A DNA stretch of 64,000 nt from a virus. Its lineage: Duplodnaviria > Caudoviricetes. The notes under the pieces are model-generated. The model saw nothing but the letters and a program-made list of their open reading frames with translations, was not told the origin of the DNA and made no database searches. The stretch spans positions 2,037-66,036 of IMG/VR virus record IMGVR_UViG_3300045747_000167; one strand, given 5' to 3'. Shown in pieces: positions 10,900 to 59,508 of this stretch. The translations under genes and the position numbers were made by a program. Position 1 is the first letter of the stretch; each line of letters opens with the position of its first letter.

Positions 10900-11418
10900 A
10901 TGCCCATCTGGCTGAGCCTCATCCCCTGGCGCCTGGTTGCCGTTGCGGTGGCCTGCGCAGGGGTGTGGTTCGCCTGGACAGAGCATGGCGCATCCCGCTA
11001 CCAGGACGGCCGCCGCGACATGCAGGCGGTCGTCGTCGCCCAGGTCCAGGAGGAGCAGCGTGCCCTCCAGGAGCTGGCCAACAAGCACCAGGAGAAGGTC
11101 AATGAAATCGCAGCTGCTGACCAGGAGCGCATATCTCTGCTTGAGCGCCGTGTTTCTGCTCTGGACACTGGAACTCGCGGCCTGCGCGAGCGCCTCACCG
11201 CGGTCGTTGCCAGCACTGTCGGACCTCCCGAAGCTCCCGGTGCCACCGGCCAGCCTGATGCAGGCGCCGCCGCCCTCGGGAGCATATCTAGCTCGTGTTC
11301 AGACCTGGCAGCAGGACTCGCTCGCGACGCTGAACGCCTTGCCGACCAGGTCCGCGGCCTCCAGTCCTACGCCGTCGAAGTGAGCGGCGCGCCGCCGAAC
11401 CTGGAGCACTCGCAATGA
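10900..11418 (+). CDS. Rz-like inner-membrane spanin
   Basis: N-terminal TM, coiled coil, C-terminal Cys; contains an embedded lipoprotein ORF. Confidence 0.8.
   Translation: MPIWLSLIPWRLVAVAVACAGVWFAWTEHGASRYQDGRRDMQAVVVAQVQEEQRALQELANKHQEKVNEIAAADQERISLLERRVSALDTGTRGLRERLTAVVASTVGPPEAPGATGQPDAGAAALGSISSSCSDLAAGLARDAERLADQVRGLQSYAVEVSGAPPNLEHSQ
11102..11383 (+). CDS. Rz1-like outer-membrane spanin lipoprotein embedded in Rz (+1 frame)
   Basis: GGAG RBS, MKSQLL...LELAAC lipobox, Pro-rich mature part. Confidence 0.8.
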   Translation: MKSQLLTRSAYLCLSAVFLLWTLELAACASASPRSLPALSDLPKLPVPPASLMQAPPPSGAYLARVQTWQQDSLATLNALPTRSAASSPTPSK

Positions 11419-27168: not shown

Positions 27169-27528
27169 GTGCAGGAAGCCGCCTCGCGCCGCGAGCTGAT
27201 GGCGATGTGGCGGCACCTGATCGAACCGGTGCTGCTCGACGGCATCCAGCCGATCCAGTGGGACGAGGCGCTGCAGCTCAATGCGCGCGTGACGTCGCAG
27301 CGAGAGTCGGTCCTGATGACGGTCGACGGTGATCTGGGCGACTCGCGCGTGAGGACTGTGGTGGTGGCGGCCGGCGACATGCATGACGTGTGCGACCTGG
27401 TGGCTGAGATGGAAGACGACGCTCGTGCGTGCGGCTGCAAGAAGGTCTTGTATGTCGGCCGCCAGGGCTGGCACCGGGTGATGCCCGGCTACAAGGTTGC
27501 CGCCGTGATTGGCGCGAAGGAGCTGTGA
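27169..27528 (+). CDS. GNAT-like tail-region protein
   Basis: ARACGC...GRQGW.RV pattern; precedes ejection proteins. Confidence 0.55.
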   Translation: MQEAASRRELMAMWRHLIEPVLLDGIQPIQWDEALQLNARVTSQRESVLMTVDGDLGDSRVRTVVVAAGDMHDVCDLVAEMEDDARACGCKKVLYVGRQGWHRVMPGYKVAAVIGAKEL

Positions 27529-27529
27529 C

Positions 27530-29302
27530 ATGGGCGGCATTGTTAGCGGGATCCTCAACGCAGTCGGGCTGATCCCCGACGCGCCCGACATGACGCCTGT
27601 GGCCAACGCCACGGCGCAGGCATCCGATCTGGCCGCCAAGACGGCGCAGCAGCAGCTCGACTTCGCCAAGCAGCAGTACGCCGACCAGAAGCCGCTGGTG
27701 GACGCCGCCGGCAAGGCTGCGCTGGCGTCGAACGCGCAGGACCAGGCCATCGCCAAGCAGGCCGCCGAGCGCTCGCAGACCGCCTGGACGCAGAACCAGA
27801 ACGCGACGCAGGGTGCCGTCGGGCAGATGGGCCTCAACGCCCTCGGCGCCCAGTACCTCAACCCTGAGCAGACGTCCCAGCTACAGGCCGCGCAGGCCGT
27901 CCTGGCCAACCCAGCCGCCACGCCCGAGCAGCGCACCGCGGCGCAGTCGCAGCTGGCCGCCCTGCAGAAGGCGGCCGAGACCGCCGGCATCGGCCTGGAG
28001 CAGGCCAAGGGCACGAACCTGGTGAACACTGCGCAGGGGCAGGCCGATCAGGTCAACTCAGCCTTCGGTACGAACGCCACCGCCACCAAGCAGGGCGGCA
28101 CCGACTATGCCTCCGGCCTGGCAGACATCGGCTCGAAGTTCGGCACCCAGGCGATCGGCATCGGCGAGCAGGATGCGCAGGCCGCGCTCGACAACGCAGA
28201 CACGATCGGCGGCCAGCTGCAGTCGATCGCCAAGCAGCGTGCCGCCGACTTCGAGAAGAACGCCGGCACGCAAGCGAACGCAGACATCGCGAACTCGGCA
28301 GACCAGGCGAACCGGCAGCTGTTGCGCCTGGGTGGCGACCCGAACAAGATGGCCGCCATGGGCGCCGACATCGCGAACTCGCAGCAGCTCGCGCGGATCG
28401 GCTCCGGCAATCAGGTCGCCAGCATCAACATCGCGAACCTGAACGCAGCCGACGACAAGGCGCTGGGCCTCAAGTCCTCGGCGCTGGATGCGGCGCGCGC
28501 GTCCCGCACCCAGGCGAAGGAGACGGCGCTCGGGATGAACCTGAACGCGGCGCAGGGCGGCCTGTCCGCGGTGACCAGCGCCAACCAGTCGGCCGCCGAC
28601 AAGACGCTGCAGGGCAATACCACCGGCCAGAGCCTGACATTCAACGCGCAGAACCAGGCCAACTCGCTCAACAACAACGCCAAGGACAAGGTCGATGCTG
28701 GCCTGAACTCGCTGCAGCAGGGTGCCGCGAACTACGGCGCCGGCTTCGCGAACACCTCTGGGCAGAACGCGCAGAACGCTGTCGTGGCCGGCACGGCTGG
28801 CGTCAACGGCCTGGCGACGGCGGTGAACAGCGGCAACCAGACCACCAGCACCACGCTGGGCGGCATGAACGGCGGCATGACTGCGGCGCAGATCCAGAAC
28901 ACCGGCGCGCTGGGGCTGGCGAACGCGAACACCAACCAGTACAACGCCGAGGCGAACGCCATCAACGGCGCCGTCAAGAACATCGCCGGGATGATTGGCA
29001 CCAACCCGACCACCGGGATCGTCAGCGACAAGAAGGCAAAGAAGAACCGCAAGCCGGTGGATGACGACGCCGCGCTGGAGGGCCTGGAGGCTGTTGCCCC
29101 CGAGAGCTGGTCCTACAAGAAGGGCGTGGCAGATGGCGGCAAGCATGTCGGCCCGATGGCCCAGGACATGAACGAAGAGTTCGGCGAGCAGGTCGCACCC
29201 GGCGGCAAGCAGATCGACGTCATCTCGAACCTCGGCCTGCACCACGCTGCCATTCGCGCGCTGGCCAAGAAGGTCGGCCACCTGGAGCGGAGACGCGCAT
29301 GA
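27530..29302 (+). CDS. DNA ejection protein with C-terminal peptidase S74-like domain
   Basis: A/Q/G/N-rich body; SDKKAK.N...WSYK...HVGPMAQD. Confidence 0.75.
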   Translation: MGGIVSGILNAVGLIPDAPDMTPVANATAQASDLAAKTAQQQLDFAKQQYADQKPLVDAAGKAALASNAQDQAIAKQAAERSQTAWTQNQNATQGAVGQMGLNALGAQYLNPEQTSQLQAAQAVLANPAATPEQRTAAQSQLAALQKAAETAGIGLEQAKGTNLVNTAQGQADQVNSAFGTNATATKQGGTDYASGLADIGSKFGTQAIGIGEQDAQAALDNADTIGGQLQSIAKQRAADFEKNAGTQANADIANSADQANRQLLRLGGDPNKMAAMGADIANSQQLARIGSGNQVASINIANLNAADDKALGLKSSALDAARASRTQAKETALGMNLNAAQGGLSAVTSANQSAADKTLQGNTTGQSLTFNAQNQANSLNNNAKDKVDAGLNSLQQGAANYGAGFANTSGQNAQNAVVAGTAGVNGLATAVNSGNQTTSTTLGGMNGGMTAAQIQNTGALGLANANTNQYNAEANAINGAVKNIAGMIGTNPTTGIVSDKKAKKNRKPVDDDAALEGLEAVAPESWSYKKGVADGGKHVGPMAQDMNEEFGEQVAPGGKQIDVISNLGLHHAAIRALAKKVGHLERRRA

Positions 29303-30741: not shown

Positions 30742-33700
30742 TTGGCTGAAGAGAACTGGTGGTCGAAGGACTCCCCGGCGCCGGCTCCTGCCGCCCGGCC
30801 AGCGCCGGATGACCAATGGTGGTCCCAGGATAGCCCGGCTGGCCCTACGCCGGCCGGTCAGCAAGCACAGGTCCGTGCCCAGACTGACGCCGACTTCTCG
30901 GGCCCCGAGCCAGGCATGGCCAGCCAGGCTGCCAAGGGCACGTTCGACTCTGTCGGTATGGGCGAGGGCGGCACCATCCGCACGGCCGGCGACATCGCTG
31001 GCGCCACGCCGGAAGGCTTCCTGGCCACCATGGGAAACCTCGGCGGCAAGCTGGTCAAGGGCATCTCCGACGCTGCTGCCAAGGTGCCTGCGGTCAACAT
31101 TGGCTTGCTGGGAGCGAAGGTTGGTGGCCTGGTCAGCAACAGTGTCGCGCACAAGTTCGCCGATGAGACGACGGCGGCGGCGGGATACGCCACCCAGGAG
31201 GGCCGCGATCGGGTCGCTACCGCGCTGGCTGACCCGACTGCCCATCCGATCGAAGCCGCGCGCTACGGCGCATCGCAGGCCGTCAGCGACTACGGCAAGA
31301 AGCAGCAGGAGTTCTACGCCGGCGAGCTGCACAAGGACGCTCCTGCGATGGAGCGCCAGAACAAGGAAGTCCAGGACGCCGAAGGCTTCTGGAACACGGT
31401 CGCCACCTCGCTCGCCAACCCGCTGTCGCTCACCAGCACCGTGGCCCAGTCGTTCCCCGACATGGCCGCTGGCATGGGCATCAGCCGGGCTGCCATGCTC
31501 GGCAAGCAGATCCTATCAACCCCGGTTGGTAAACAGGCGCTGGCCGCCGGCGAAGAGGCATTCCAGAAGACGATCCTCGATGCTGCCGGGAACCCCGCCA
31601 CCTTCGCGGACGCCAGCAAGTTGGCAGCCGCCGCGCGCCAGCAGGCCATCAAGGACACGCTCAAGGCCAACCAGGGTGCGCTCGAGGGCATCGCTGGCGG
31701 CGCCGGCCTGATCGCAGAGTCGGTGCAGTCTGGCGGCAACACGCGCCAGGCTGTGCAGGACTTCGTCAGCCAGCGGCCCGACATGGAGCTGCAGCGGGAC
31801 AACGCGACATACCGCGACCTGCGCATCCACCACAGCGAGGAAGAGGCCAAGGCCATGCTGGGCGATCAGCTCGGCAACCAGGCCGCCGGCTCATCGGCCC
31901 TGTGGACTGGCGCCATGGGCAAGGTGTCCGGCGCTGCTGACGCCTGGGGCCACACGATCGGCGGCGGCAAGGTCACCGGCAAGCAGGCCCTGACCGGCAC
32001 CCTCAAGGAGGGCGGCCAGGAGATGCTGCAGAACCCTGGCGAGGACTTCGCCAAGTACGAGGCACAGGTCCAGGCCGACCCGACGCAGAAGTTCGACCTC
32101 GGCGGCTCGATGGCGCAGGGCCTGATGGGCGGCGTGGCGCAGGGCGGCGGCATGCACGGCACTGGCTACGTGGCCAGCCGCTCCCGCACCGACCCCACAG
32201 AGCCTGCCGTGCTGCTTGCCGGCCGCCCTGTCACGGGCTACACCGATGCGCAACTGAAGCAGTACTCCGAGTCCGGCGTGCTCACCGCGCCGGTGAAGGA
32301 GAAGGTCGACGCTGAGATCGCGCGCCGCGCGCAGCCAGGGGCTGCCCCGGCGCAAGGAGACGCACTTGACACCGCGGTCGACAAGTACGCAGCCGGGCTT
32401 CCCGGAGAGGGTAAGCCGGGCCCTGCAGATGCAGGGGGTGCCGGAGCTGGAGTCGCAGGCGCTGGCCAGGCTGGTGGCCTCGACCCCGCCCGGGTCGCCC
32501 GTGACCGTGCCACCCTACCTGCACAGGGCGATGGACTGCCTGGGCAGGCTGGTGCGCCTGCAGTAGGCAGCATCATCCCGAAGCCTGCAACCACGCAAGG
32601 AACACTCGATGCCATCGAAGAGCAAGCGGCTGAAGCGCGCCGCCAAGCAGCGGCTGATGTTGAGTCTCGCCAGGAAACAGATCGCAAGGCAGCGCTGCGT
32701 GGAGGCGACCCAGCCCAGCCCAACCCTCTCGACAACCTCGCCAACGCTGATGCCGCCCAACGATCTGCCGGTGTGCGACTGGTCGTGGCAGACCATGGCG
32801 GCAGCGCCACTTCGGGAGTGTCCCACCTGGAGTCTGCGAGAACGCGAAACGACGCCAGCCTGGTCAGTGGCCGCGCCTCTCTAGCCAAGCTGGGCGGCAG
32901 CGTCCCAGACCTGCAGCCGATCCAGGACCGTGGCCTGTTCCGCCGGGCCAGCGCAGTGGCAGACGCGATCGAGTCCGTGACGGGGTCAAGGCCGGTGCTG
33001 TACCACGACACGCGCTCCGGTGCAGCCGACGGCTTCGAGCACAACGGCGTGGCCTACGTGAACGCCGGCAACCTGGAGCAGAGCCTCCAGCACACGGTCT
33101 TCCACGAGACCTTCCACGTCGCCGAGCGCCGCGCGCGGCAGGGCGATGCGTCGGCCCAGCAGTTCGTCAAGACCGCCGAGTCGATCTTCGACATGATCTC
33201 GCAGGAGGGCCGGAAGGCCTACGCGGAGAAGTACCTCTTCAAGCACCAGCTCGAGAACGGCGCCATGACCGCCGAAGAAGCGCTGGCTCACCCGAAGCTG
33301 AAGAGCGAGATGATCGCCGACTTCTTCGGCCAACGTGGCAACGACGCCAAGTTCATCCGCCACCTGGCGCAGCGCTCGCCGGAGCACTTCGGTGGCTTCG
33401 CCCGCCGGTGGATCGACTCGCTGACCAACATGATCCAGCAGCTGCGTGGCTCGCGCGGCAGCTACGGTGCGAAGGACATCGACCAGTACATCCAGAAGCT
33501 GAGCCACGCCAAGGCGGTGGCTGCCAGTGCGCTGATCCAATGGCGGCGCGACAACCCGCGCTTCGCCTCCAACCTGCCGGCCCCGGGCGAGACGCATCGC
33601 CCCGCCAACGCGCGCCAGGCCCGCCTGGACGACCTGCTGTCGGACGACACGCACGCCGCGGTGACGGGCTACAAGCAGAGCGCCAAGCAGACCTACGACG

Positions 33701-36700
33701 TCCTCGAGCCCGGCGCCCGCACGCGCGCCGAGGCGCAGCTCGCCCCGCAGCTCAAGCTGGCCGAGGAGGCAAAGCCCGAGTTCGACCGCCGCCTGATCAA
33801 CATCGCGAACCAGCTGGGCGGCGAGGCGCAGACCCCGCCGGTGAAGGGCATGCAGCGCGCCGCGGTGCGCCTGGTCGTGGACCACAAGGGCGACAATCTG
33901 AAAACTACCGACCTGCTGCGCGGATCGGTGGTGGTGCCGTCCCTGAGCGACATCCCGGCTGCCATGCGCGCGGTCGGCGCCAACTTCCCCGTGGTCCGCA
34001 CGAAGGACCGCTTCACGACGCCCACGAACGACGGCTACCGCGACGTGCTGATGAACGTCCGCATGCCCAATGGCCTGGTCGCCGAGGTGCAGATCCACAC
34101 GCCCGAGACTGCGGCCGCGCGCCAGGCCGGGCACGGTATCTACGAGGATGCCCGCGCGCACCGCGCCGCCGGCAACGAGGCGGCTGCCGCGCCGCTGGAC
34201 GACCTGACCCGGCAACTGCATGGGCAGGCCTACCAGAAGGCGCTGGGTGGCGCCGCGCCGGCGTTCAGCACGAAGCAGTACCCAATGGCCCCGGCTGGAA
34301 CACGGTACGAAGAGCACGCCAAGGCGCCGACCATGATGAGCCCTGACGAGTTCTTGAGTCAGGTGCGGCCGCTTGACATTGACGAGGCGTCTCGAGACAA
34401 CATCGATGACCTCAAGCGGCACATCGAGAGTGGAGGGAAGCTGGATCCGCTGCACATCCGCAAGGATGGCAAGGAGGACGGCCGGCACCGTGCTGTGGCC
34501 TCGCGTGAGCTTGGCATCAAGCTGGTGCCTGTGATTGATGAGCGCGAAGCTACCAGCTTCAGCGACAAGCAGGATCCCGGCACCGAAGACGGCGCACCAC
34601 AGCCCGCCTGGGAGGCGCCGAAGCACAGCCGTGCCGGCGAGGTGACCGACAACGCCCGCTACCAGAGCGGCGCGCGCAAGGGGCAGTACATCGGTGCGCC
34701 GGCCAAGTACAACACGCCGGCCAAGATCCCGACGCTGCGCCGCGCCTTCCTGAACCTGGCGCGCGAGGGCGAGGCCGGGCGCTTCTGGTACGAGAACAGC
34801 GGTCACGCGGTCCTGCAGATGACCTTCAACGACCGGGCCGAGGCGCGCCGGTTCATCGCCCTGCTGGCCATCTACTCGCCCCAAGCGAAGGTCGATGCCA
34901 ACACCACGATGGCACTGCGCGCGTGGGCCCAGTACAAGGCTGGCGTTCCAATCGACACGAAGACTGCTGACCTCGACGCCAAGGCCGACGCGATCCTCTA
35001 CAAGGGTCAGCAGTGGGAGGGCGAGAAGACCAACAACTTCTTCCGCAACCTGTTGCGCCAGGTCGACGAGCAGTCTGGCTCGAAGGACCAGCAGGGCGTC
35101 ACGGTCGACATGTGGATGATGCGCGCCGCCGGCTACGACAAGGATTCCCCTACCGACGCCAACTACCTCTTCGTCGAGAACGAAACCAATCGGCTGGCCA
35201 AGGAGCTTGGCTGGGAGCCGCAGCAGGTCCAGGCCGCGATCTGGGTGGCGATGAAGGCGCGCCTGGAGAACGCTGAAGTCAAGGCCGCCACAGAGAAGGA
35301 GTCGACTCGCAAGGGCTACATGCACTACGAGGACAAGGTCGACCCCGAGACCGGCAAGACCAAACAGGTGCGCGTGGTCGACGATGAGGTCAAGCATCGC
35401 CGCGTCTGGCTCAAGCATGCGATGGCGCTTGCCGTCAGCGAGGGCGACACGCAGCGCGCCAAGTTCGACTTCAGCGACGGCCTGCGCCGGCACCTGGGCC
35501 AGATCAGCTGGGAGGCGAAGCCTGGCCGCCCGACTGGCATCCTGCCCGGCATCCACACTGCCAGCTACCAGCAGCAGGCCGAGTTCCAGAAAGCGGCTGC
35601 AGAGGCCATGACGGGGCCGCATGGGGAGGATCTGCTGGCTCAGAAGCTGGGCTTGCTCCGCGACGGCCAGGTGGCTGCTCCGGGCGTGTGGCAGTCCGAC
35701 GTCGGCGCCGGCATGCAGTACATGGTCCCGATGATCCCGTTGAAGGGCGCCAAGCAGGGCCAGTTCGGCGTCGCGCCGGAAGTGGCCAAGAACCTGAACG
35801 TCTACGCCGCAACGCTTGGCCTGCTGTTCCGCCAGGATGGCGTTGGCTGGCACCGCCCGTTCTTCACCGCCACCGGCCCGAAGGCCAACGCAGTCGACGT
35901 CAGGATCGGCCGCCCGCTGACGCCCGAGGAGGCAAGCTCTCTCTGGACCGAGGTCGACAAGGAGCTGCGCGCCGCCGGCCTGCCGGACTGGGAAAAGAAT
36001 GCCGCTCTGGTGTCAAGCCCCCAAGGCATGCGCCTGATCCAGTTCGGAATCATGGACAATGTCGCCTTCTACAAGGCGATGACGAAGGCGGTCGACCGGG
36101 CGTTCCCGGGAGACATCGACGTCAAGCTGGGCAAGTTTGCCAGCGTTGGCGACATGCCTACGAACGACTGGAAGGTTCACCAAAATGGCGAAGATTACGC
36201 ATCTCGGATTGCTGAAGCCGGGCGATCCGATGTTCTCGGGTTCGCCCGAGATGTTCTCGCGCCGCGCGTTCAAGCCCTCTTCGAAGACTTCAGCCAGCGA
36301 TACGGCTGGGGCGACCCCGGCCAGCTCAGCTTCTCCGGCAAGCAGCGAGACGCCGGAGACGGAAGCGGACGGGATCAGGGCGGAAGCCTTGCGCCGCTCC
36401 CAGGTGCGCCAGCTGTTCAAGGCGCCGCCGGACCAGACCCCCGACTCACAGGGGTAGCGCACGCCTACGCGGCTGAGCGCGGCATCCAGCTGCGCCGCCA
36501 GGCCGAGTACGTCCAGGTCGACCCAGAGCGCGCCGCGCGCATCGCGGCCGCCTACGACGCGATGCCGCACGCGCCGAACGACCCGCGCGTCAAGGCAGCC
36601 TACGCCGACCTGATCCAGCAGACCACGGACCAGTTCCACGCCCTGGAGAAGGCCGGCTACAAGTTCACCTTCTTCGACGGCGCGACAGACCCCTACAAGG

Positions 36701-39700
36701 GCAACCCCTGGAACGCGATGCGAGACCTGCGCGCCAACAAGCGCATGGCGGTCTACGGCACCTATGACGGCTACGGCACCGAGGGCGTCACCAAGGGGAT
36801 GATCGAGGACAACCCCATGCTGGCCGACACCGGCATGCGCTGGCCCGACCAGAAGGGTGTGATGCATCCGGTCCTGGCCAACGACCTGTTCCGCGCCGTG
36901 CATGACGCCTTCGGCCACGGTCTGGAGGGCGCCGGCTTCCGCGCGCAGGGTGAGGAGAACGCCTGGCAGGCGCACGCTCGCATGTTCACTGGCGACGCCG
37001 TCGGCGCGATCACCAGCGAGACCCGCGGTCAGAACAGCTGGCTGAACTACGGCCCCTATGGCGAGAAGAACCGCACCGCCAAGGTCAAGGACACCGTCTT
37101 CGCCGACCAGAAGACCGGGCTGATGCCGGAGTGGACCTGGACCGAGGGGAGCGTCGGCGACGAGGGCGGAATCAACGAGTCCCGCAAGCAGCCACCGGTT
37201 CCCAACGGCCACCTCCAGACCGATCTGCCCGAGGAGGGCAAGATCCAGGCTGGCCGCCGCGTCGTGCAGGACCAGCATCTCCGCATGCGCCAGCTGCGCG
37301 AGTGGGCGACCGAGAACGGCGCCCGCCTGACGCCAGCCTCCGACGCCTACGCCACCGAGGAGCGCATGCACGGCCGCATGGCCAGCAAGATCGAGGACTT
37401 CCGCGAGAAGACCATCAAGCCGCTGGTCGAGAAGACGCAGGCCGCCGGCTTCACCATGGACCAGGTGGCCGAGGTTCTGCACGCCGAGCACGCCCGCGAG
37501 CGCAACGAGCAGGTCGCCAAGATTAACCCGAAGATGCCAGACGCCGGCAGCGGCATGGCCACCGCCGACGCACGCGCCATCCTGGCCCGCACCACGCCCG
37601 AGCTGCGGCAGCTGGCACGCCAGTGGCAGGCCATCACGATCGCCTCGCGCGACGTGCTGCTGAAGGCAGGGATCATCAGCCAGGACATGGCCGACCGCTG
37701 GGACGCGACCTACAAGCACTACGTGCCCCTGAAGGGCGGCGACGAAGAGAGCGCGGCGCGCACCGGCACCGGGCAGGGCCTGAGCGTGAACGGCAAGCAG
37801 AAGCGCGCCATGGGCCACAACGCCCGCGAAGAGCACATCGTCGAGAACATCCTGCAGGACTACGAGCGCTCGGTCATGCTGGCCGAGAAGAACCGCGTCG
37901 GGCAGTCGATGATGCTGTGGCTGACCGAGATGAACGACCCGCGGGTGGGCACCGTCTCGCAGCCGGTCAAGCGTGCCACCCTGATGCCGACCGCGAGCTA
38001 CGACGTGCGCGGCGTGGGCCTGAGTGTGGCCACCTTCGACACCCGAGCCGAGGCCGACAAGTTCATCCGACAGCAGATCGCCGCCAACTCGCCGGGCGCC
38101 AAGCGCCTGAACGTCGTCAAGACGCTGGGCGACCCGACGGTGCAGTACCGCTCGCGCCCGCAGCTCGAAGAGAACGAGGCGATGGTCTACGTCAAGGGGC
38201 ACGCCATCCGCATGCAGCTCGTCGACCCGCTGCTGGCCCAGAGCTACAAGAAGCTGAACGCCGACGGCATGAACCGTCTGATCGCCATCAGCAGGGCATT
38301 CCAGACCTACCTGTCGCGCGCCTACACCGGCTACAACCCGGCCTTCATCGTGCGCAACATGATCCGCGACTTCGGCAGCGGCACGATCAAGCTGACCGGA
38401 AACTTCGGCGCCGGCACGACGGCCAAGATCATCGGGAAGTACCCAGGCGCCCTGGCCAGCATGCTTCGCTACAGCATGACCGGCAAGAGCACGCCGGCGA
38501 TCGACGGCTACCGGGCCAACGGCGGCAGCACGGGCGCCGCCTGGCTGAGCGACATGGAGCGGATCGGGCTGAACATCCAGCACGACTTCGAGCGCTACCA
38601 GGGCGTGATGGCCCAGGTGAAGCAGGGCAAGCCCGGCGCGGCCGCGCGCGTCGCCGCTCGCAAGGTGGTCGGCAGCCTGGTGGGCTGGATCGAGCACCTG
38701 AACGCCGCGACCGAAAACGCCATGCGGTTGGCCACCTACCAGGAGATCCTGAAGGAGACCGGCTCGCCCGAGCAGGCCGCCAGCGCTGCCAAGAACAGCA
38801 CCGTCAACTTCAACCGCAAGGGCGAGAAGACCTCGACGCTGGCTGCCCTGTACCTGTTCTTCAACCCGAGCGTGCAGGACACCGCCAGCGTGGTCGAGAC
38901 GATGACCCGCGGCGCGCACAAGGAGCAGGCGTGGGCCCTGTGCGCCGCCATGACAACCCTGGCCTTCACCGCGGCCGCGCTGCAGTTCGGCGGCGACGAT
39001 GACGCCTACGAGGAGTGGAAGAAGCTCAGCGACTACACCCGCGACAAGAACCTGGTGATCCGGATCGGCAAGGGCAAGTACGTCACCATCCCAGTGCCGT
39101 TCGGGTTCGGCTTCTTCCACACGCTGGGCAACAGCCTCTTCATGATGAGCAAGGGCGAGAGCGCCAACTCGCTGTCGGTCGGCGTGGCCGCCAACATCCT
39201 GGACCACTTCAGCCCGGTCGGCAACCCGATCAACGGCGCCAAAACATGGGGCACGATCAACGGCAAAGGCCTGGTGGAACTCACCCCCGGGCTGGTCGGC
39301 GGCGACCTGTTCCGCGACCTGTTCCGCTGGGCCATCGCCAACCGCACCTCGCTGGGCGGCGACATCGTTCCGGACTCGAAGTTCGACGAGGGCCGCCCCA
39401 ACTTCCTGCGCGAGAACCGCAGCACGAAGGGCACCGCCTTCGACGCCGTGTCGCGCGGCCTGAGCGACGCCACCGGTGGCACGCCGACGCAGGGCGGCAA
39501 GGTCGACATCAGCCCCGAGACGCTGAAGTTCTGGTTCGGCGCGATCTCTGGCGGCACGGGCACGTTCATCTCCGACGCCTTCGCCCTGGCCGGACTGGGT
39601 GTGCGCGCAGCGGTGGCGCCGGCCGGCGAGGACATCTCGTCGCTCAAGCCCGAGATGCACGAGATACCCATCGCGAAGGACTACGTCCGCGAGTCAGGCG

Positions 39701-40050
39701 TCAAGGATGCCCGCCGCGCCTTCTGGGAGGCCTCCAACGAGGCCAAGCTGGCCATCGCAGACCTCAAGCGCGCCACCAAGGCTGGCGATGAGGTCGGGGC
39801 CGAGCGGGTCTACAACGAGAAGGGCGAGATCCTGCATCTGGCCGGGCTGCAGAAGAGCCTCGGCAAGATGATCTCAGCGCAGCGCGACCAGGTGGAGGCG
39901 ATCAACGCCGACAAGACCACCAGCCTGGCGTTCAAGCGCGCCGCGGTGGCGCGCCTGGAGAAGGAAGAGACCGAGATCTACGACGACTTCCTGCGGGCTG
40001 CTACTGAGGCCGGGCACGCTACCGAGGCGCGGAAGGCGGCGGGGCGCTGA
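30742..40050 (+). CDS. large polyvalent virion protein (zincin peptidase, RelA/SpoT synthetase, ParB-like, HhH-glycosylase-like, HDxxGH domain, LPD38)
   Basis: AGGAG + TTG; HETFH...E; DLLRG/GYRD/EVQIH/H..YE; DGRHR; VTVDMWM..QVQAAIW; HDAFGH..GEENAW; TVNFNRKG/LYLFFN/IPVPFGFG. Confidence 0.9.
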   Translation: MAEENWWSKDSPAPAPAARPAPDDQWWSQDSPAGPTPAGQQAQVRAQTDADFSGPEPGMASQAAKGTFDSVGMGEGGTIRTAGDIAGATPEGFLATMGNLGGKLVKGISDAAAKVPAVNIGLLGAKVGGLVSNSVAHKFADETTAAAGYATQEGRDRVATALADPTAHPIEAARYGASQAVSDYGKKQQEFYAGELHKDAPAMERQNKEVQDAEGFWNTVATSLANPLSLTSTVAQSFPDMAAGMGISRAAMLGKQILSTPVGKQALAAGEEAFQKTILDAAGNPATFADASKLAAAARQQAIKDTLKANQGALEGIAGGAGLIAESVQSGGNTRQAVQDFVSQRPDMELQRDNATYRDLRIHHSEEEAKAMLGDQLGNQAAGSSALWTGAMGKVSGAADAWGHTIGGGKVTGKQALTGTLKEGGQEMLQNPGEDFAKYEAQVQADPTQKFDLGGSMAQGLMGGVAQGGGMHGTGYVASRSRTDPTEPAVLLAGRPVTGYTDAQLKQYSESGVLTAPVKEKVDAEIARRAQPGAAPAQGDALDTAVDKYAAGLPGEGKPGPADAGGAGAGVAGAGQAGGLDPARVARDRATLPAQGDGLPGQAGAPAVGSIIPKPATTQGTLDAIEEQAAEARRQAAADVESRQETDRKAALRGGDPAQPNPLDNLANADAAQRSAGVRLVVADHGGSATSGVSHLESARTRNDASLVSGRASLAKLGGSVPDLQPIQDRGLFRRASAVADAIESVTGSRPVLYHDTRSGAADGFEHNGVAYVNAGNLEQSLQHTVFHETFHVAERRARQGDASAQQFVKTAESIFDMISQEGRKAYAEKYLFKHQLENGAMTAEEALAHPKLKSEMIADFFGQRGNDAKFIRHLAQRSPEHFGGFARRWIDSLTNMIQQLRGSRGSYGAKDIDQYIQKLSHAKAVAASALIQWRRDNPRFASNLPAPGETHRPANARQARLDDLLSDDTHAAVTGYKQSAKQTYDVLEPGARTRAEAQLAPQLKLAEEAKPEFDRRLINIANQLGGEAQTPPVKGMQRAAVRLVVDHKGDNLKTTDLLRGSVVVPSLSDIPAAMRAVGANFPVVRTKDRFTTPTNDGYRDVLMNVRMPNGLVAEVQIHTPETAAARQAGHGIYEDARAHRAAGNEAAAAPLDDLTRQLHGQAYQKALGGAAPAFSTKQYPMAPAGTRYEEHAKAPTMMSPDEFLSQVRPLDIDEASRDNIDDLKRHIESGGKLDPLHIRKDGKEDGRHRAVASRELGIKLVPVIDEREATSFSDKQDPGTEDGAPQPAWEAPKHSRAGEVTDNARYQSGARKGQYIGAPAKYNTPAKIPTLRRAFLNLAREGEAGRFWYENSGHAVLQMTFNDRAEARRFIALLAIYSPQAKVDANTTMALRAWAQYKAGVPIDTKTADLDAKADAILYKGQQWEGEKTNNFFRNLLRQVDEQSGSKDQQGVTVDMWMMRAAGYDKDSPTDANYLFVENETNRLAKELGWEPQQVQAAIWVAMKARLENAEVKAATEKESTRKGYMHYEDKVDPETGKTKQVRVVDDEVKHRRVWLKHAMALAVSEGDTQRAKFDFSDGLRRHLGQISWEAKPGRPTGILPGIHTASYQQQAEFQKAAAEAMTGPHGEDLLAQKLGLLRDGQVAAPGVWQSDVGAGMQYMVPMIPLKGAKQGQFGVAPEVAKNLNVYAATLGLLFRQDGVGWHRPFFTATGPKANAVDVRIGRPLTPEEASSLWTEVDKELRAAGLPDWEKNAALVSSPQGMRLIQFGIMDNVAFYKAMTKAVDRAFPGDIDVKLGKFASVGDMPTNDWKVHQNGEDYASRIAEAGRSDVLGFARDVLAPRVQALFEDFSQRYGWGDPGQLSFSGKQRDAGDGSGRDQGGSLAPLPGAPAVQGAAGPDPRLTGVAHAYAAERGIQLRRQAEYVQVDPERAARIAAAYDAMPHAPNDPRVKAAYADLIQQTTDQFHALEKAGYKFTFFDGATDPYKGNPWNAMRDLRANKRMAVYGTYDGYGTEGVTKGMIEDNPMLADTGMRWPDQKGVMHPVLANDLFRAVHDAFGHGLEGAGFRAQGEENAWQAHARMFTGDAVGAITSETRGQNSWLNYGPYGEKNRTAKVKDTVFADQKTGLMPEWTWTEGSVGDEGGINESRKQPPVPNGHLQTDLPEEGKIQAGRRVVQDQHLRMRQLREWATENGARLTPASDAYATEERMHGRMASKIEDFREKTIKPLVEKTQAAGFTMDQVAEVLHAEHARERNEQVAKINPKMPDAGSGMATADARAILARTTPELRQLARQWQAITIASRDVLLKAGIISQDMADRWDATYKHYVPLKGGDEESAARTGTGQGLSVNGKQKRAMGHNAREEHIVENILQDYERSVMLAEKNRVGQSMMLWLTEMNDPRVGTVSQPVKRATLMPTASYDVRGVGLSVATFDTRAEADKFIRQQIAANSPGAKRLNVVKTLGDPTVQYRSRPQLEENEAMVYVKGHAIRMQLVDPLLAQSYKKLNADGMNRLIAISRAFQTYLSRAYTGYNPAFIVRNMIRDFGSGTIKLTGNFGAGTTAKIIGKYPGALASMLRYSMTGKSTPAIDGYRANGGSTGAAWLSDMERIGLNIQHDFERYQGVMAQVKQGKPGAAARVAARKVVGSLVGWIEHLNAATENAMRLATYQEILKETGSPEQAASAAKNSTVNFNRKGEKTSTLAALYLFFNPSVQDTASVVETMTRGAHKEQAWALCAAMTTLAFTAAALQFGGDDDAYEEWKKLSDYTRDKNLVIRIGKGKYVTIPVPFGFGFFHTLGNSLFMMSKGESANSLSVGVAANILDHFSPVGNPINGAKTWGTINGKGLVELTPGLVGGDLFRDLFRWAIANRTSLGGDIVPDSKFDEGRPNFLRENRSTKGTAFDAVSRGLSDATGGTPTQGGKVDISPETLKFWFGAISGGTGTFISDAFALAGLGVRAAVAPAGEDISSLKPEMHEIPIAKDYVRESGVKDARRAFWEASNEAKLAIADLKRATKAGDEVGAERVYNEKGEILHLAGLQKSLGKMISAQRDQVEAINADKTTSLAFKRAAVARLEKEETEIYDDFLRAATEAGHATEARKAAGR
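32366..32566 (+). CDS. candidate nested out-of-frame ORF
   Basis: AGGAG 6 nt before TTG; host-frame GC3 drops across it. Confidence 0.45.
   Translation: MTPRSTSTQPGFPERVSRALQMQGVPELESQALARLVASTPPGSPVTVPPYLHRAMDCLGRLVRLQ
32609..32884 (+). CDS. candidate nested out-of-frame ORF (basic N-terminus)
   Basis: AAGGA before ATG; host-frame GC3 drops. Confidence 0.35.
   Translation: MPSKSKRLKRAAKQRLMLSLARKQIARQRCVEATQPSPTLSTTSPTLMPPNDLPVCDWSWQTMAAAPLRECPTWSLRERETTPAWSVAAPL
36185..36457 (+). CDS. candidate nested out-of-frame ORF (MAKITHLGLLKPGDPMF...)
   Basis: Host frame switches to many A/T-ending codons across this ORF. Confidence 0.45.
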   Translation: MAKITHLGLLKPGDPMFSGSPEMFSRRAFKPSSKTSASDTAGATPASSASPASSETPETEADGIRAEALRRSQVRQLFKAPPDQTPDSQG

Positions 40051-41753: not shown

Positions 41754-42196
41754 CAGAGCCCCCTCTCGTGCTGTGCGCGGGCACGCATCCGGCGCAGCTG
41801 GCGCGCCACGTACGAGCGACCCCTCTGGTCAAAGAGGTCGCGCTTATCGAAATCGATCCCGAGACTCACCGGCGCCACGAAGCGCGCAGTGATGGTGCCG
41901 CTGCCATCGAAGGAGTTCGGCGTCACCAGATGCATATCCGGCGGGTCGAACGTCATGCAGGATGCGATGTACGTCCGATAACAGATGCGCCGGCTGATCG
42001 GATCCTCGAACTTCTTGTGGCTCACGCGGGTATTGGTGCGCCGCTTGCGCTCGTCCAGCGCGCCCAGCTTGGCAGCCCGCCGGTCGGACAGCAGGAAATC
42101 GATCGCCAGCTCGGGGCGCGTCTTCTTGTAGCGCGCGGTGGCCAGCCGGACCAGCTCGCGCGTCTCGCTGTCGGGGAGGAAGAGGTGGTTGATCAC
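41753..42196 (-). CDS. hypothetical protein
   Basis: AGGAGG RBS, GTG overlapping the int stop. Confidence 0.55.
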   Translation of the reverse strand: MINHLFLPDSETRELVRLATARYKKTRPELAIDFLLSDRRAAKLGALDERKRRTNTRVSHKKFEDPISRRICYRTYIASCMTFDPPDMHLVTPNSFDGSGTITARFVAPVSLGIDFDKRDLFDQRGRSYVARQLRRMRARAQHERGL

Positions 42197-43431
42197 GACT
42201 GCCTCCTGATTGGTGACGCGGCCTGCCCCGCCGATGTGCAGGATTTGGAGGCGTTCGATTTGTCCGCGTCGTTGACCTTGGTAGATGCCGCGATCCAGGC
42301 CTCCAGGCCGGCGACCTCTCGGTCGTCCTGGTCTCCCTTCACCCAGCGGGCATAGGTCGAGTGGAAGATCTCCACGCTGTGCCCCATCTGCCCGGCGCAC
42401 CAGGCCGCCGTGCGCCCTGCCATCAGCATCATGGTGGCGAAGGTATGGCGGGCGTGGTTCGGGGCCCTGTAGCGGATCCCCAGGCGCTTCAGGCAGGGTG
42501 TCCAGTAGCTGCGCCGGAACGCGCGCTCCTCGAGCCATGCCGTGCCGTAGCGCGGGTCCAGCCAGACGTGCTCGCCGGCCAGCTTGGTGTGCTTGGCCTG
42601 CCGCTGCAGGGCCGCCAGCGACCGGCTGTTCAGGCGCACGTCGCGCGACACGCCAGTCTTGGTCTTGGCCTTGTCGACGCCGCGCACGATGGCCTCGTGG
42701 ATGCGCTGGTAGCCGCTGTTGAAGTCGATCGAGCCCCAGCGCAGGCCCGCCATCTCGGACGTCCGCACGCCGCTGTAGAAGCGCCACTCGACCATGTTGG
42801 CCACGGCCTCGGGGCAGTGCGTACGCATGTCGGCGATGATGGCCTCGGCCTCCTGCATCGAGAACGGGTCGGGCGGCTCGCGCTGCCAGCTGGCGCGCGG
42901 GATCTTGGATGCCGGGTTGTCCTTCAGCGTGCCGTCGGTGACCGCCAGCTGCAGCGCCTCGCGCAGCACGCTGACGTAGTTGTTGATCGTCTTGCCGGAC
43001 AGGCTGGCGCGCGCGCCGAGGGCGAGTAGGAAGTGGCTGTGCTTCAGCCCCCGCACCGGGCGGTCGCCGAGCAGCCCGCCGTCGACCGCGGAGCCCTTCC
43101 AGAACTTGATCGCCGAGGTGTAGCCGGCGCGCGTCGAGTGCTCGATGCGCTGCGTGCTGAGCCAGGTGTCCAGCTGCCGGCCCAGCGTCAGCTCGACGCC
43201 GGTGGTGGCATCGTCGCCCGAGGGGAAGTGCTCCGCGTAGCTGAAGGTGCCGAGGCGGATCATCTCCTTCACATCGTGCGAGAAGCGCTCGGCCCAGCGG
43301 ATGTTCGCCGGCGTCGGCGCCATCGGCCTGCCGTTCGTCATGAGCACCGGGCGGCGGCGCTTCCCCTCGAACAGGAAGTCCAGACGCATGCTGTACTTCC
43401 TGACCTCGACCCCAGAACCTGACCTGCCCAT
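42193..43431 (-). CDS. int: tyrosine integrase with N-terminal arm-binding domain
   Basis: GGAGG RBS; GVRTSE (R), HARHTFA (HxxR), MGHS, TYARW (Y). Confidence 0.93.
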   Translation of the reverse strand: MGRSGSGVEVRKYSMRLDFLFEGKRRRPVLMTNGRPMAPTPANIRWAERFSHDVKEMIRLGTFSYAEHFPSGDDATTGVELTLGRQLDTWLSTQRIEHSTRAGYTSAIKFWKGSAVDGGLLGDRPVRGLKHSHFLLALGARASLSGKTINNYVSVLREALQLAVTDGTLKDNPASKIPRASWQREPPDPFSMQEAEAIIADMRTHCPEAVANMVEWRFYSGVRTSEMAGLRWGSIDFNSGYQRIHEAIVRGVDKAKTKTGVSRDVRLNSRSLAALQRQAKHTKLAGEHVWLDPRYGTAWLEERAFRRSYWTPCLKRLGIRYRAPNHARHTFATMMLMAGRTAAWCAGQMGHSVEIFHSTYARWVKGDQDDREVAGLEAWIAASTKVNDADKSNASKSCTSAGQAASPIRRQS

Positions 43432-43444
43432 GGCGCCTCCGTGT

Positions 43445-43485
43445 ATGCAGATTTGCATTCTACAGGCACACCACTTACTTGGCAA
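43445..43485 (-). promoter_or_regulatory. sigma70 promoter for int with overlapping operator
   Basis: TTGCCA (43485-43480)-N17-TAGAAT (43462-43457); ATGCA-gatt-TGCAT at 43445-43458. Confidence 0.65.
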
Positions 43486-43657
43486 GCACCCAGTTCTGCA
43501 CACCTCGTAAATCGATCCAGATCTGCCCGCTGGGGTCGCGGTGAAATTGCCTACCGTCGACCCACTGACCGCGGTAGATCTTGCCTTCAATGGCGCGCTT
43601 CGTCAGCCCGAGCAGCTCGACGGCGCGCTTGATGGTGACGAGGTTGTCGAGGCTCAC
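43475..43657 (-). CDS. xis: excisionase
   Basis: VTIKRAVELLGLTKRAIEGKIYRGQW..G......G.IWIDL..V..WV wHTH, immediately upstream of int. Confidence 0.8.
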   Translation of the reverse strand: MSLDNLVTIKRAVELLGLTKRAIEGKIYRGQWVDGRQFHRDPSGQIWIDLRGVQNWVLAK

Positions 43658-59326: not shown

Positions 59327-59508
59327 TGCGGCACCTCCTTCAGCTCCTCGACAGGCTCGTCGCACTTGTCGCAGAAGTCGTAGCGTGAGCCGAAGTAGTA
59401 GAACAACTCGCCCTTGCTGTTCTCCCAGGCGAGGGCCGAGGTCACGCCCTGCTCGTGCTTGCACTCACGGCAGCGCATGCGCAGCGTGATGTTGGCGTGC
59501 TTGGTCAC
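59323..59508 (-). CDS. small Zn-ribbon protein
   Basis: CREC...CDKC; coupled. Confidence 0.55.
   Translation of the reverse strand: MTKHANITLRMRCRECKHEQGVTSALAWENSKGELFYYFGSRYDFCDKCDEPVEELKEVPH

What the first reader, a model, noticed from the sequence alone, without database searches (positions are those of the whole stretch)
33103..37191. Giant virion protein looks like a self-processing polyprotein: S-x-K-Q motif at every domain boundary
Seen: the 3102-aa protein has five S-x-K-Q motifs. They are QSAKQ (33676-33690, aa 979), FSTKQ (34264-34278, aa 1175), FSDKQ (34558-34572, aa 1273), FSGKQ (36331-36345, aa 1864) and ESRKQ (37177-37191, aa 2146). I found no other copies. They fall between recognisable modules: zincin HETFH...E (33103-33117) | RelA/SpoT synthetase | ParB-like | HhH-glycosylase-like | HDAFGH domain | LPD38. 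The Ser is AGC in three copies and TCC in two, so the constraint is on protein rather than DNA. Known: polyvalent phage proteins are thought to be co-injected with DNA and often carry zincin-like peptidases. Inference: the peptidase, or another protease, cuts at these sites to release free effectors of about 196, 98, 591 and 282 aa, making a modular cargo-delivery polyprotein.
Basis: partly seen in the sequence, partly recalled or inferred. Interest (0 to 1): 0.88.

Follow-up and report, generated by a model that had tools for sequence, protein, structure and literature searches.

The report
Recurring junction motif in giant phage protein
A 3102-residue virion protein of a temperate podophage carries the same short Ser-x-Lys-Gln tag at the end of each cargo domain, and relatives carry their own versions of it, which suggests but does not prove that the protein is cut into separate effectors.

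Summary
The ORF at 30742-40050 holds exactly five S-x-K-Q copies against 0.44 expected. All five fall in the short zones where homology blocks end. Four of five lie in AlphaFold segments with pLDDT under 50, just after the last helix of a folded domain.

The exact S-x-K-Q is not general. Relatives have [F/Y/M]-S-x-[R/K/Q] at the aligned positions and after many other cargo domains. Each protein tends to use its own variant (FSEQR, FSNRA, [FM]SNRR; S-x-K-Q in this lineage). In 92 of 144 diverse relatives an [FY]-S tail lies just before the conserved C-terminal LPD38 module. No DNA repeat underlies the copies.

The object is a known kind: a Bcep22/933W-type virion "polyvalent" protein, for which Iyer et al. 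2017 already proposed processing by an embedded zincin. I found no published junction-motif grammar. Cleavage is inferred, not shown. The protease is unidentified. The HExxH domain is conserved, but motif density does not track HExxH presence. Some relatives lack the motif.

First readers of this scan noted similar linker motifs in at least four other genomes; I did not check those.

The parts
30742..40050 (+). Giant polyvalent virion-protein gene, 3102 codons plus stop. It is the last gene of the structural operon.
   Evidence: GGAG lies 5 nt before the TTG start. Pfam LPD38 and DUF7178. PHROG DarB-like and giant-protein families.
32914..33576 (+). HExxH (zincin-like) domain, aa 725-945. HETFH is at 33103-33117.
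   Evidence: The AF2 order of helix, three strands, then a helix bearing HETFH fits the MPTase core described in PMC5512222. H788 is kept in 22/23, E789 in 23/23 and H792 in 23/23 aligned homologues. There is no Pfam hit and no PDB sequence hit.
33676..33690 (+). Junction motif 1, QSAKQ, after the zincin module.
   Evidence: It lies between homology blocks that end at about aa 936 and start at 962-993. It sits in a helical stretch of pLDDT 68-75, not a clear linker. Homologues have MS[AR]R[QG] after their zincin.
33718..34251 (+). RelA/SpoT-type (small alarmone synthetase-like) cargo domain, aa 993-1170.
   Evidence: VIA Z 14.8 to Tas1 6ox6 and SAS2 6fgk. Foldseek E 1e-5. Pfam RelA_SpoT E 3.8e-4, 21.1 bits, below the cut-off of 27.
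34264..34278 (+). Junction motif 2, FSTKQ.
   Evidence: It lies 8 aa after the last helix of the RSH domain, at the start of a pLDDT<50 segment, aa 1171-1218.
34279..34557 (+). ParB/DdrB-like segment, aa 1180-1272, with GRHR at 34480-34491.
   Evidence: Pfam ParB_N gives only E 0.077. The GRHR motif is present. The segment is poorly modelled because few homologues cover it.
34558..34572 (+). Junction motif 3, FSDKQ.
   Evidence: It lies in a pLDDT<50 segment in both models. It is 20 aa before the point where 102 homologue HSPs start, aa 1295.
34678..36303 (+). DUF7178 block, aa 1313-1854: an HhH-glycosylase-like N-terminal half plus an alpha/beta half, conserved as one unit.
   Evidence: Pfam DUF7178 E 3.9e-14. 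AGOG 3n0u Z 9.4 and DUF2419 Z 8.8 over aa 1327-1577. All 118 homologues that matched in the local BLAST cover it.
36331..36345 (+). Junction motif 4, FSGKQ.
   Evidence: It lies 10 aa after the last helix, which ends at aa 1854, where pLDDT falls below 50. The aligned column in homologues reads F-S-[RQKNE]-[RQK]-x in nearly all rows shown.
36424..37161 (+). HDAFGH domain of unknown function, aa 1895-2140.
   Evidence: It is conserved in 67 long homologues and in phage records. HDAFGH is at 36901-36918. There is no Pfam hit.
37177..37191 (+). Junction motif 5, ESRKQ.
   Evidence: It lies between a homology end at aa 2140 and a start at aa 2162. Homologues have GDMPAFS[QK][RK] at this place. It sits in a poorly modelled pLDDT<50 stretch, aa 2062-2173.
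37219..40047 (+). Conserved C-terminal module, aa 2160-3102, containing LPD38 (39010-39648). It is always the C-terminal end in relatives.
   Evidence: In the 150 listed representatives the match runs to the C-terminal end, and most matches start at query residue 8-13. Pfam LPD38 E 2.5e-27. PHROG DarB-like.

Best explanation
The gene encodes a virion-packaged, ejected polyvalent protein of a temperate podophage with Bcep22/933W-like structural genes.

Its layout is: an N-terminal region plus an HExxH peptidase-like domain; four cargo cassettes (RelA/SpoT-type synthetase, ParB-like, DUF7178/HhH-glycosylase-like, HDAFGH); and a conserved C-terminal LPD38 module of about 940 aa.

Each cassette ends in a short tail. 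Family-wide the tail is [F/Y/M]-S-x-[R/K/Q], or [F/Y]-S-[R/K]. In this lineage it is S-x-K-Q. The tail sits just after the last secondary-structure element and before a disordered linker.

The most likely reading (inferred) is that these tails are recognition sites for an endopeptidase whose specificity is set by the phage lineage. The simplest candidate is the HExxH domain of the same polypeptide. Cutting would give the N-terminal part up to about aa 979, four cargo pieces of about 196, 98, 591 and 282 aa, and a C-terminal module of about 950 aa.

Shown: where the motif sits, that it recurs across relatives, that it varies by lineage, that it acts at the protein level, and what the domains are. 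Inferred: cleavage itself, the scissile bond, the protease, and whether cutting happens in the capsid or after ejection.
For: Position of the five copies:
- There are 5 S.KQ against 0.44 expected.
- All five lie in inter-block zones covering 10.4% of the protein, P about 1e-5.
- Four of five lie in pLDDT<50 segments that start 8-10 aa after a terminal helix.

Positional equivalents in homologues:
- The column aligned with FSGKQ reads F-S-x-[RQK].
- ESRKQ aligns with GDMPAFS[QK][RK].
- QSAKQ corresponds to MS[AR]R[QG] after the homologues' zincin.

Enrichment at homology breakpoints:
- 196 of 672 homology-end clusters have [FYM]S.[RKQ] within -15..+25, against 6.6% of random positions.
- FS is the second most enriched dipeptide at breakpoints in 53 non-redundant proteins, 2.9-fold, p 1e-14.

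The tail follows many different upstream contexts: gdmpa-, npdir-, eglpm-, pgelr-, eaepv- and psgkp-.

Variants are shared within a protein. In 53 representatives (84 instances in 38 proteins) identity at motif position 3 is 0.29 against 0.10 when permuted. At position 4 it is 0.70 against 0.43. For both, 0 of 2000 permutations reach the observed value.

Lineage and family spread:
- The seven closest relatives by C-terminal module carry 8 S.KQ against 2.65 expected, after DIR- and MPLF-type tails.
- 92 of 144 diverse representatives have [FY]S in the 60 aa before the C-terminal module, against 23% of random windows. The logo is D-I-R-[FY]-S-[RK].

Other support:
- The copies share no DNA repeat beyond the codons themselves.
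- HExxH is conserved.
- No other protease was found among the 39 neighbouring ORFs scanned.
- Processing by embedded MPTases is a published proposal (PMC5512222, sections read).
Against: There is no direct evidence of cleavage.

- The exact S.KQ is not enriched in the 121 proteins (48 observed, 10 of them from this protein and its duplicate entry, against 51.8 expected).
- 15 of the 53 representatives show no boundary instance.
- Four of seven relatives at 47-52% identity have no [FYM]S.[RKQ] at all.
- Bcep22 gp75 has only one tail-like copy.
- Two cyanophage/metagenomic polyvalent proteins have no tail-like copy.
- Motif enrichment is the same with an HExxH (1.6x, 103 proteins) and without one (1.5x, 33 proteins).
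- The third zinc ligand is not clearly conserved. The zincin fold has no Pfam match and no PDB sequence match; its fold was not matched or effectively tested in the structure searches.
- QSAKQ and ESRKQ lack the aromatic residue, and QSAKQ lies in a predicted helix.
- P1 DarB, which shares part of the C-terminal module by PHROG, is described as a 250 kDa capsid protein (PMC9024508, passages).
- N4 vRNAP is packaged unprocessed, according to PMC5512222.
- In the passages I read, phi24B gp47 and JC1 gp69 are reported in virions with no mention of fragments.
Confidence: 0.5

Rival explanations
1. The tails are handling signals, not cleavage sites. They would be short aromatic/Ser/basic marks at each domain end, read by a chaperone, the ejection channel, a packaging partner or a modifying enzyme. 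They would help a 3000-residue chain that must be threaded out of the capsid and refolded domain by domain.
For: The positional and recurrence data fit this reading equally well. Motif density is independent of HExxH presence. Related giant proteins are reported in virions without mention of fragments in the passages read.
Against: Lineage-specific variants within one protein suggest a reader encoded by the phage, not a conserved host chaperone. No candidate reader other than the HExxH domain was seen in 39 scanned ORFs. Some relatives have no motif at all.
Confidence: 0.22
2. The sites are cut, but by a host protease or by a phage protease that is not the embedded HExxH domain.
For: Motif enrichment is equal in cargo with and without HExxH. 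The peptidase status of the HExxH domain is unverified.
Against: A host protease would not explain protein-specific variants such as FSEQR, FSNRA or S.KQ among phages of related hosts. No prohead or other protease family was found in the ORFs scanned. Many proteins without an HExxH may be truncated metagenomic gene calls.
Confidence: 0.13
3. The tails are simply the C-terminal edges of a few unrelated domain families and travel with their cassettes. They would have no shared function, and the resemblance would be convergent or due to composition.
For: Each tail is tied to its upstream domain: WGDPGxLxFS with the DUF7178 block, GDMPAFS with HDAFGH, NPDIRFS with another block. A DUF7178 subfamily has a different tail, TRN..[FY]R, of similar length.
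Against: This does not explain why residues after the Ser match among non-homologous tails of one protein and differ between proteins. It also does not explain why at least six upstream contexts converge on aromatic-Ser.
Confidence: 0.12
4. Chance, or a DNA-level artefact (repeat or gene conversion) that produces the five copies.
For: The count alone is only borderline after correction for about 8000 possible patterns.
Against: The positional P is about 1e-5. Homologues carry equivalents at the aligned positions. The copies share no DNA repeat and use two different Ser codons.
Confidence: 0.03

Closest known systems
Phage-type polyvalent proteins with zincin-like MPTase domains (Iyer, Burroughs, Anand, de Souza, Aravind 2017, PMC5512222)
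   Same: A giant multi-domain protein carrying LPD38, RelA/SpoT, ParB-like and HExxH domains. It is predicted to travel with the DNA. Processing by the embedded peptidase is explicitly proposed there (sections read).
   Different: That paper's main text names no cleavage site or junction motif. Word counts in it are 'linker' 0, 'boundar' 0, 'interdomain' 0 and 'cleavage site' 1, the last only in a reference title. Its FTP supplements were not seen. What is added here is a positional grammar with lineage-specific variants.
DarB-like giant virion proteins of Bcep22-like phages (Bcep22 gp75, JC1 gp69) and the LPD38 protein of Stx phages (phi24B gp47, POCJ13 gp71)
   Same: The genome position is the same: last gene of the structural operon, followed by two small reverse-strand genes. 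The C-terminal module is homologous at 27-35% identity. Virion association is shown by mass spectrometry for JC1 gp69 and phi24B gp47 (passages).
   Different: The cargo differs. Bcep22 gp75 has only one tail-like copy. POCJ13 gp71 has YSR four times against 0.38 expected, but that ranks only 4th among its tripeptides. No processing is reported in the passages read.
Polyproteins of eukaryotic RNA viruses, cut at short conserved sites by an embedded protease
   Same: Several functional units lie in one chain, a short motif recurs at every junction, and a protease-like domain lies in cis. Iyer et al. draw the same analogy.
   Different: Here the protease type would be a zincin, the protein is a virion passenger and not a translation strategy, and cleavage is unproven.
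Capsid-internal proteins trimmed by prohead proteases (T4 internal proteins by gp21, phiKZ inner-body proteins; recalled, not from a call) and P1 DarA/DdrB processing (PMC5512222; PMC9024508)
   Same: Passenger proteins in the head are cut at short consensus sites.
   Different: Those cuts are made by a dedicated prohead protease, which also trims the capsid protein in T4. No such protease was found in this window. The related phi24B capsid protein is reported uncleaved.

Membership tests
Phage-type polyvalent protein (Iyer et al. 2017) | Several unrelated effector-type domains in one polypeptide | tested here: met
   RSH fold Z 14.8. Pfam DUF7178 and LPD38. HExxH domain. HDAFGH block conserved on its own in other phages.
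Phage-type polyvalent protein (Iyer et al. 2017) | [quoted passage not shown] | tested here: met
   PF18857 E 2.5e-27, 96.7 bits against a cut-off of 27. The statement about distribution is in PMC5512222.
Phage-type polyvalent protein (Iyer et al. 2017) | Encoded in a phage, in or next to the virion module | tested here: met
   Terminase, P22-like portal, major capsid protein, internal virion protein and tail fibres lie upstream on the same strand. An integrase lies at 42193-43590.
Phage-type polyvalent protein (Iyer et al. 2017) | Packaged in the virion and delivered with the DNA | not testable with these tools
   Only by analogy: JC1 gp69 and phi24B gp47 were detected in virions.
Zincin-like MPTase of polyvalent proteins | Conserved HExxH on a helix that follows a three-stranded sheet and an N-terminal helix | tested here: met
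   H788 22/23, E789 23/23, H792 23/23. AF2 elements are H40-57, E62-65, E74-77, E80-84 and H85-109, the last bearing HETFH, at pLDDT 62-86.
Zincin-like MPTase of polyvalent proteins | Third zinc ligand (Glu) on the next helix, and recognisable similarity to a zincin family | tested here: inconclusive
   E795 is kept in 13/23. Position 813 is D/E in 11 of 22. No Pfam hit, no PDB sequence hit, and no zincin row in the fold searches of the 1200-residue model. Atlas neighbours are LPD23, LPD1 and MuF_C clusters, which are leads only.
RelA/SpoT homologue (small alarmone synthetase-like) | Synthetase fold | tested here: met
   6ox6 Z 14.8 with rmsd 3.3 over 168 residues. 6fgk Z 14.8 with rmsd 2.7 over 164 residues. 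Foldseek E 1e-5.
RelA/SpoT homologue (small alarmone synthetase-like) | Pfam RelA_SpoT above the gathering score; catalytic residues | tested here: not met
   21.1 bits against a cut-off of 27. Catalytic residues were not examined. I therefore describe the domain as RSH-fold and do not file it as a family member by sequence.
ParB/Srx N-terminal domain | Pfam ParB_N match and GxxR motif | tested here: inconclusive
   13.5 bits against a cut-off of 26.3, E 0.077. GRHR is present. The segment is poorly modelled.
Self-processing polyprotein | A short motif recurring at the junctions between functional units | tested here: met
Self-processing polyprotein | Cleavage products, and dependence on the embedded protease | not testable with these tools
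   No proteomic or biochemical data for this protein.

The most novel reading that the evidence does not exclude
LPD38-type giant virion proteins may be true bacteriophage polyproteins with a readable cleavage code. Every cargo cassette would end in an aromatic-Ser-basic tail. The residues flanking that tail would be tuned lineage by lineage to the protease embedded in the same chain (S-x-K-Q here; FSEQR, FSNRA and YSR elsewhere). Effector boundaries in thousands of uncharacterised giant phage proteins could then be predicted from sequence. Cassettes that move between phages would have to re-adapt their tails.
Probability: 0.3. Interest if true: 0.8.

Novelty: new variant of a known kind. Interest (0 to 1): 0.62.

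Why it matters
Polyvalent proteins are among the largest and least understood phage proteins. They are thought to deliver counter-defence and takeover enzymes together with the DNA. Whether they act as one chain or are cut into free effectors has been open since they were described in 2017.

A conserved junction tag with lineage-specific variants makes that question testable. It names the residues to mutate and the fragment sizes to expect. If it holds, it gives a rule for delimiting cargo domains across the 7319 LPD38-module relatives found at E <= 0.001.

It also affects how an injected RelA/SpoT-type enzyme with a toxin-like fold (closest structure: Tas1) would be released inside the host.

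Tried and rejected
1. Exact S.KQ as a family motif. Rejected: 48 observed against 51.8 expected in 121 proteins. Only the generalised form recurs.

2. Pooled k-mer enrichment over homologues. Uninformative, because it is dominated by conserved in-domain motifs.

3. Total [FYM]S.[RKQ] count: 615 against 264 +/- 15 in shuffles. About two copies per protein are in-domain (YSPQA, FSxRYGW), so I used breakpoint-based tests instead.

4. Link to the zincin.
- Motif density with and without HExxH is the same.
- Ranking relatives by zincin identity showed no shared K variant. All zincin hits are about 40% identical, which is too distant to tell.

5. Comparison of "block is last" with "block is internal".
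- 0 of 67 shorter proteins that end with the DUF7178 block have the motif after it.
- 57 of 90 long homologues have it.
- The test is confounded. The short proteins form a separate subfamily with a TRN-type tail, and 0 of its 10 members with more than 150 aa downstream have the motif either.

6. Predicted complex of the HExxH domain, zinc, and the 41-residue FSGKQ linker. The verdict was "no answer" (score 0.01, mark 0.32). This is not evidence either way.

7. Fold searches.
- The aa 1253-2200 model gave no Foldseek match at E <= 0.001.
- The zincin could not be tested inside the 1200-residue model.

8. First alignment for aa 691-1300 (A2). Discarded because the ParB segment was stretched over DUF7178 columns. 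It was replaced by A3.

9. Literature.
- Searches found no paper describing a junction or cleavage motif in LPD38/DarB-like proteins.
- Gill et al. 2011 (PMC3187461) and Piya et al. 2017 (PMC6011833) are not held. Their virion gels could bear on whether Bcep22 gp75 or P1 DarB is full length.
- Supplements are closed. The phi24B preprint's tables and native-peptide data, and the FTP alignments of Iyer et al., were not seen and could bear on cleavage.

Full report
OBSERVATION

The + strand ORF 30742-40050 translates to 3102 residues. Its TTG start lies 5 nt after a GGAG. The public gene call for the identical protein starts 58 codons later and has 3044 aa (P0002).

Composition predicts 0.44 copies, and 0 of 5000 shuffles reached five. 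S.KQ is the most over-represented of all X.YZ patterns in the protein (Poisson 9e-5). With about 8000 possible patterns the count alone is only borderline.

In the six-frame translation of the whole window, [FYMLW]S.KQ occurs four times. Three are in this ORF and one is in a 155-codon shadow frame. The five sites share no DNA repeat beyond the codons themselves.

WHAT THE OBJECT IS

The window is a temperate podophage.
- Upstream on the same strand lie the large terminase, a P22-like portal, a Phage_capsid_3 major capsid protein, an SU10-type adaptor, an internal virion protein and tail fibres.
- Two small reverse-strand ORFs follow the giant gene.
- Further on lie an integrase, Erf and exonuclease genes, a helicase and a primase.

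This is the layout described for Bcep22-like phages, where "a massive DarB-like protein" ends the virion module and is followed by two reverse-strand genes (PMC9144972, passages).

Pfam finds LPD38 (aa 2757-2969, E 2.5e-27) and DUF7178 (aa 1343-1506). PHROGs finds giant-protein and DarB-like families over aa 2163-3085.

The last ~940 residues form a module. In the 150 best of 7319 relatives it runs to the C-terminal end, and most matches begin at query residue 8-13, that is 8-13 residues after ESRKQ. Homologues of this class were detected in virions by mass spectrometry: JC1 gp69 and phi24B gp47 (passages).

DOMAINS AND BOUNDARIES

Local BLAST of the protein against 119 long homologues gave 198 HSPs. 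Their ends cluster at aa 936, 1138, 1173, 1873, 2140 and 2940. Their starts cluster at 739, 962, 993, 1295, 1312, 2137 and 2162. All five motif serines fall in the inter-block zones, which make up 10.4% of the protein. For five random positions P is about 1e-5.

Two AlphaFold models were made: aa 1253-2200 (mean pLDDT 69) and aa 691-1890 (mean pLDDT 71). They place the motifs as follows.
- FSTKQ lies 8 residues after the last helix of the preceding domain, at the start of a pLDDT<50 stretch.
- FSGKQ lies 10 residues after the last helix of the preceding domain, at the start of a pLDDT<50 stretch.
- FSDKQ lies in a pLDDT<50 stretch.
- ESRKQ lies in a long poorly modelled stretch.
- QSAKQ lies in a helical region of pLDDT 68-75, at the edge of the next domain.

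So four of five sit in low-confidence segments, against 26% of the modelled length (P about 0.02).

Fold searches gave these results.
- aa 993-1170 has a small-alarmone-synthetase fold: Tas1 6ox6 and SAS2 6fgk, both Z 14.8; Foldseek E 1e-5.
- aa 1327-1577 resembles HhH-type 8-oxoguanine glycosylase AGOG (Z 9.4) and DUF2419 (Z 8.8).
- The ParB-like call is weak: Pfam E 0.077, with GRHR present.
- The HExxH domain has the helix, three-strand, HExxH-helix order that Iyer et al. describe for MPTases. H788, E789 and H792 are kept in 22-23 of 23 aligned homologues. It has no Pfam hit and no PDB sequence hit, and its fold was not matched or effectively tested in the structure searches of the long model. 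Its third zinc ligand is not clear.

HOMOLOGUES

The exact S.KQ is not a family feature: 48 observed against 51.8 expected in 121 proteins, and 10 of the 48 come from this protein and its duplicate entry. The aligned positions, however, carry a related tail.
- The column under FSGKQ reads F-S-[RQKNE]-[RQK] in nearly all rows shown.
- ESRKQ aligns with GDMPAFS[QK][RK].
- After the homologues' zincin stands MS[AR]R[QG], where this protein has QSAKQ.

The same [F/Y/M]-S-x-[R/K/Q] tail follows many other upstream contexts: npdir-, eglpm-, agvpm-, psgkp- and grid-.

Quantitatively:
- 196 of 672 homology-end clusters have the motif within -15..+25, against 6.6% of random positions.
- In 53 proteins kept at under 70% identity, FS is the second most enriched dipeptide at 339 breakpoints (83 inside the windows, 325 outside; 2.9-fold; p 1e-14). 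It ranks behind WT, which comes from one conserved domain end.
- In 144 representatives of 50%-identity clusters that have cargo, 92 (64%) have [FY]S in the 60 residues before the C-terminal module, against 23% of random cargo windows. The logo is D-I-R-[FY]-S-[RK]-A.

PROTEIN-SPECIFIC VARIANTS

Tails within one protein resemble each other more than tails from different proteins. Examples are P0019 with FSEQR x5, P0049-51 with [FM]SNRR, P0042 with FSNK[SA], and P0035/36 with FS[DE]Q.

In the 53 representatives there are 84 instances in 38 proteins; 15 representatives have none. Within-protein identity is 0.29 against 0.10 when permuted at motif position 3. It is 0.70 against 0.43 at position 4. 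For both, 0 of 2000 permutations reach the observed value. At position 5 it is 0.20 against 0.11 (p 0.0095).

The seven closest relatives by C-terminal module (60-64% identity) carry 8 S.KQ against 2.65 expected, after DIR- and MPLF-type tails. Two of the seven have none. So S-x-K-Q is this lineage's version of a family-wide tail.

RESULTS AGAINST THE CLEAVAGE READING, OR LIMITING IT

- Seven relatives at 47-52% identity have no S.KQ, and four of them have no [FYM]S.[RKQ] at all.
- Bcep22 gp75 has one tail-like copy.
- POCJ13 gp71 has YSR x4 against 0.38 expected, but that ranks only 4th among its tripeptides.
- Two more distant polyvalent proteins have no tail-like copy.
- Motif enrichment in cargo is 1.6-fold with an HExxH (103 proteins) and 1.5-fold without (33 proteins, some probably truncated gene calls).
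- Zincin similarity did not predict the variant.
- The contrast of 0 of 67 (DUF7178 block last) with 57 of 90 (block internal) is confounded by subfamily.
- No call shows cleavage.
- P1 DarB is described as a 250 kDa capsid protein (PMC9024508).
- N4 vRNAP is packaged unprocessed, according to PMC5512222.

MECHANISM

The best-supported reading (confidence about 0.5) is that the tails are recognition sites of a protease specified by the phage lineage, and that cutting separates the cargo cassettes. The embedded HExxH domain is the only protease-like element seen among the giant gene and 39 other scanned ORFs. It is therefore the simplest candidate, at about 0.3 of the total. Timing is open: in the capsid, or after ejection and refolding.

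The scissile bond is unknown. Many zincins prefer a hydrophobic residue just after the cut (general knowledge, recalled). That would suggest a cut before the aromatic residue. But two of the five local copies lack that residue, so I do not commit to this.

The rivals are a non-proteolytic handling signal, a different protease, domain-intrinsic tails, and chance. They are scored in the rival list.

COMPARISON AND NOVELTY

The protein is a new member of the phage-type polyvalent proteins. The idea of MPTase-mediated processing and the polyprotein analogy are published (PMC5512222; abstract, the Peptidases section and other passages read). The main text of that paper names no junction motif. Six literature searches found none for LPD38 or DarB-like proteins.

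First readers of this scan noted similar linker motifs in other genomes: [KR][YF]SL, K-Y-S-x-R, F-[AV]-[RK]-R-L. Those notes are unchecked and I did not test them. They agree with the aromatic-Ser-basic consensus derived here.

I class the finding as a new variant of a known kind, with interest 0.62. It does not settle whether these proteins are cut. It turns a nine-year-old proposal into a specific experiment with named residues to mutate.

Noticed in passing
window 33718-34251: The RelA/SpoT-type cargo domain is structurally closest to the type VI effector Tas1 and to small alarmone synthetases (Z 14.8), and also matches the tRNA pyrophosphokinase CapRel (Z 11.7). Which nucleotide or RNA it modifies was not examined. 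A first-reader note points to a stand-alone alarmone-hydrolase-like gene at 59505-59951; I did not test it.
   Followed up: partly
window 34768-35520 (aa ~1327-1577): The DUF7178 region has an HhH-GPD-like fold: AGOG 8-oxoguanine glycosylase Z 9.4 and queuine-salvage DUF2419 Z 8.8. This hints at a base-excision or base-salvage type activity for a family whose function is unknown.
   Followed up: partly
window 37219-40047: The ~940-aa C-terminal LPD38 module also occurs as near stand-alone proteins of about 920-1200 aa (P0176, P0156, P0142). Cargo therefore looks like an N-terminal add-on to a self-sufficient virion or ejection module.
   Followed up: no
window 30757-30825: The N-terminus carries a duplicated WWS[KQ]DSPA motif (aa 6-13 and 26-33). 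The public gene call starts 58 codons downstream and omits it. The TTG start with GGAG 5 nt upstream looks the better start.
   Followed up: partly
window 9069-10379 and 11415-13088: Large ORFs lie between the portal and capsid genes. The first has a GDSL/SGNH esterase domain (Pfam E 3e-13). The second has no clear family. An Rz-like spanin ORF lies between them.
   Followed up: no
window 27509-29302: A fibre-like protein with a C-terminal Peptidase_S74 intramolecular-chaperone domain (Pfam E 7e-10). This domain is self-cleaving in other phages and is unrelated to the giant protein's motif.
   Followed up: no
L003 (Mycobacterium phage Rizal gp102): A 433-aa mycobacteriophage protein shares the HDAFGH domain and happens to contain FSDKQ inside the domain, just before its HDFFGH. 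This is a reminder that single copies of the motif occur by chance.
   Followed up: no
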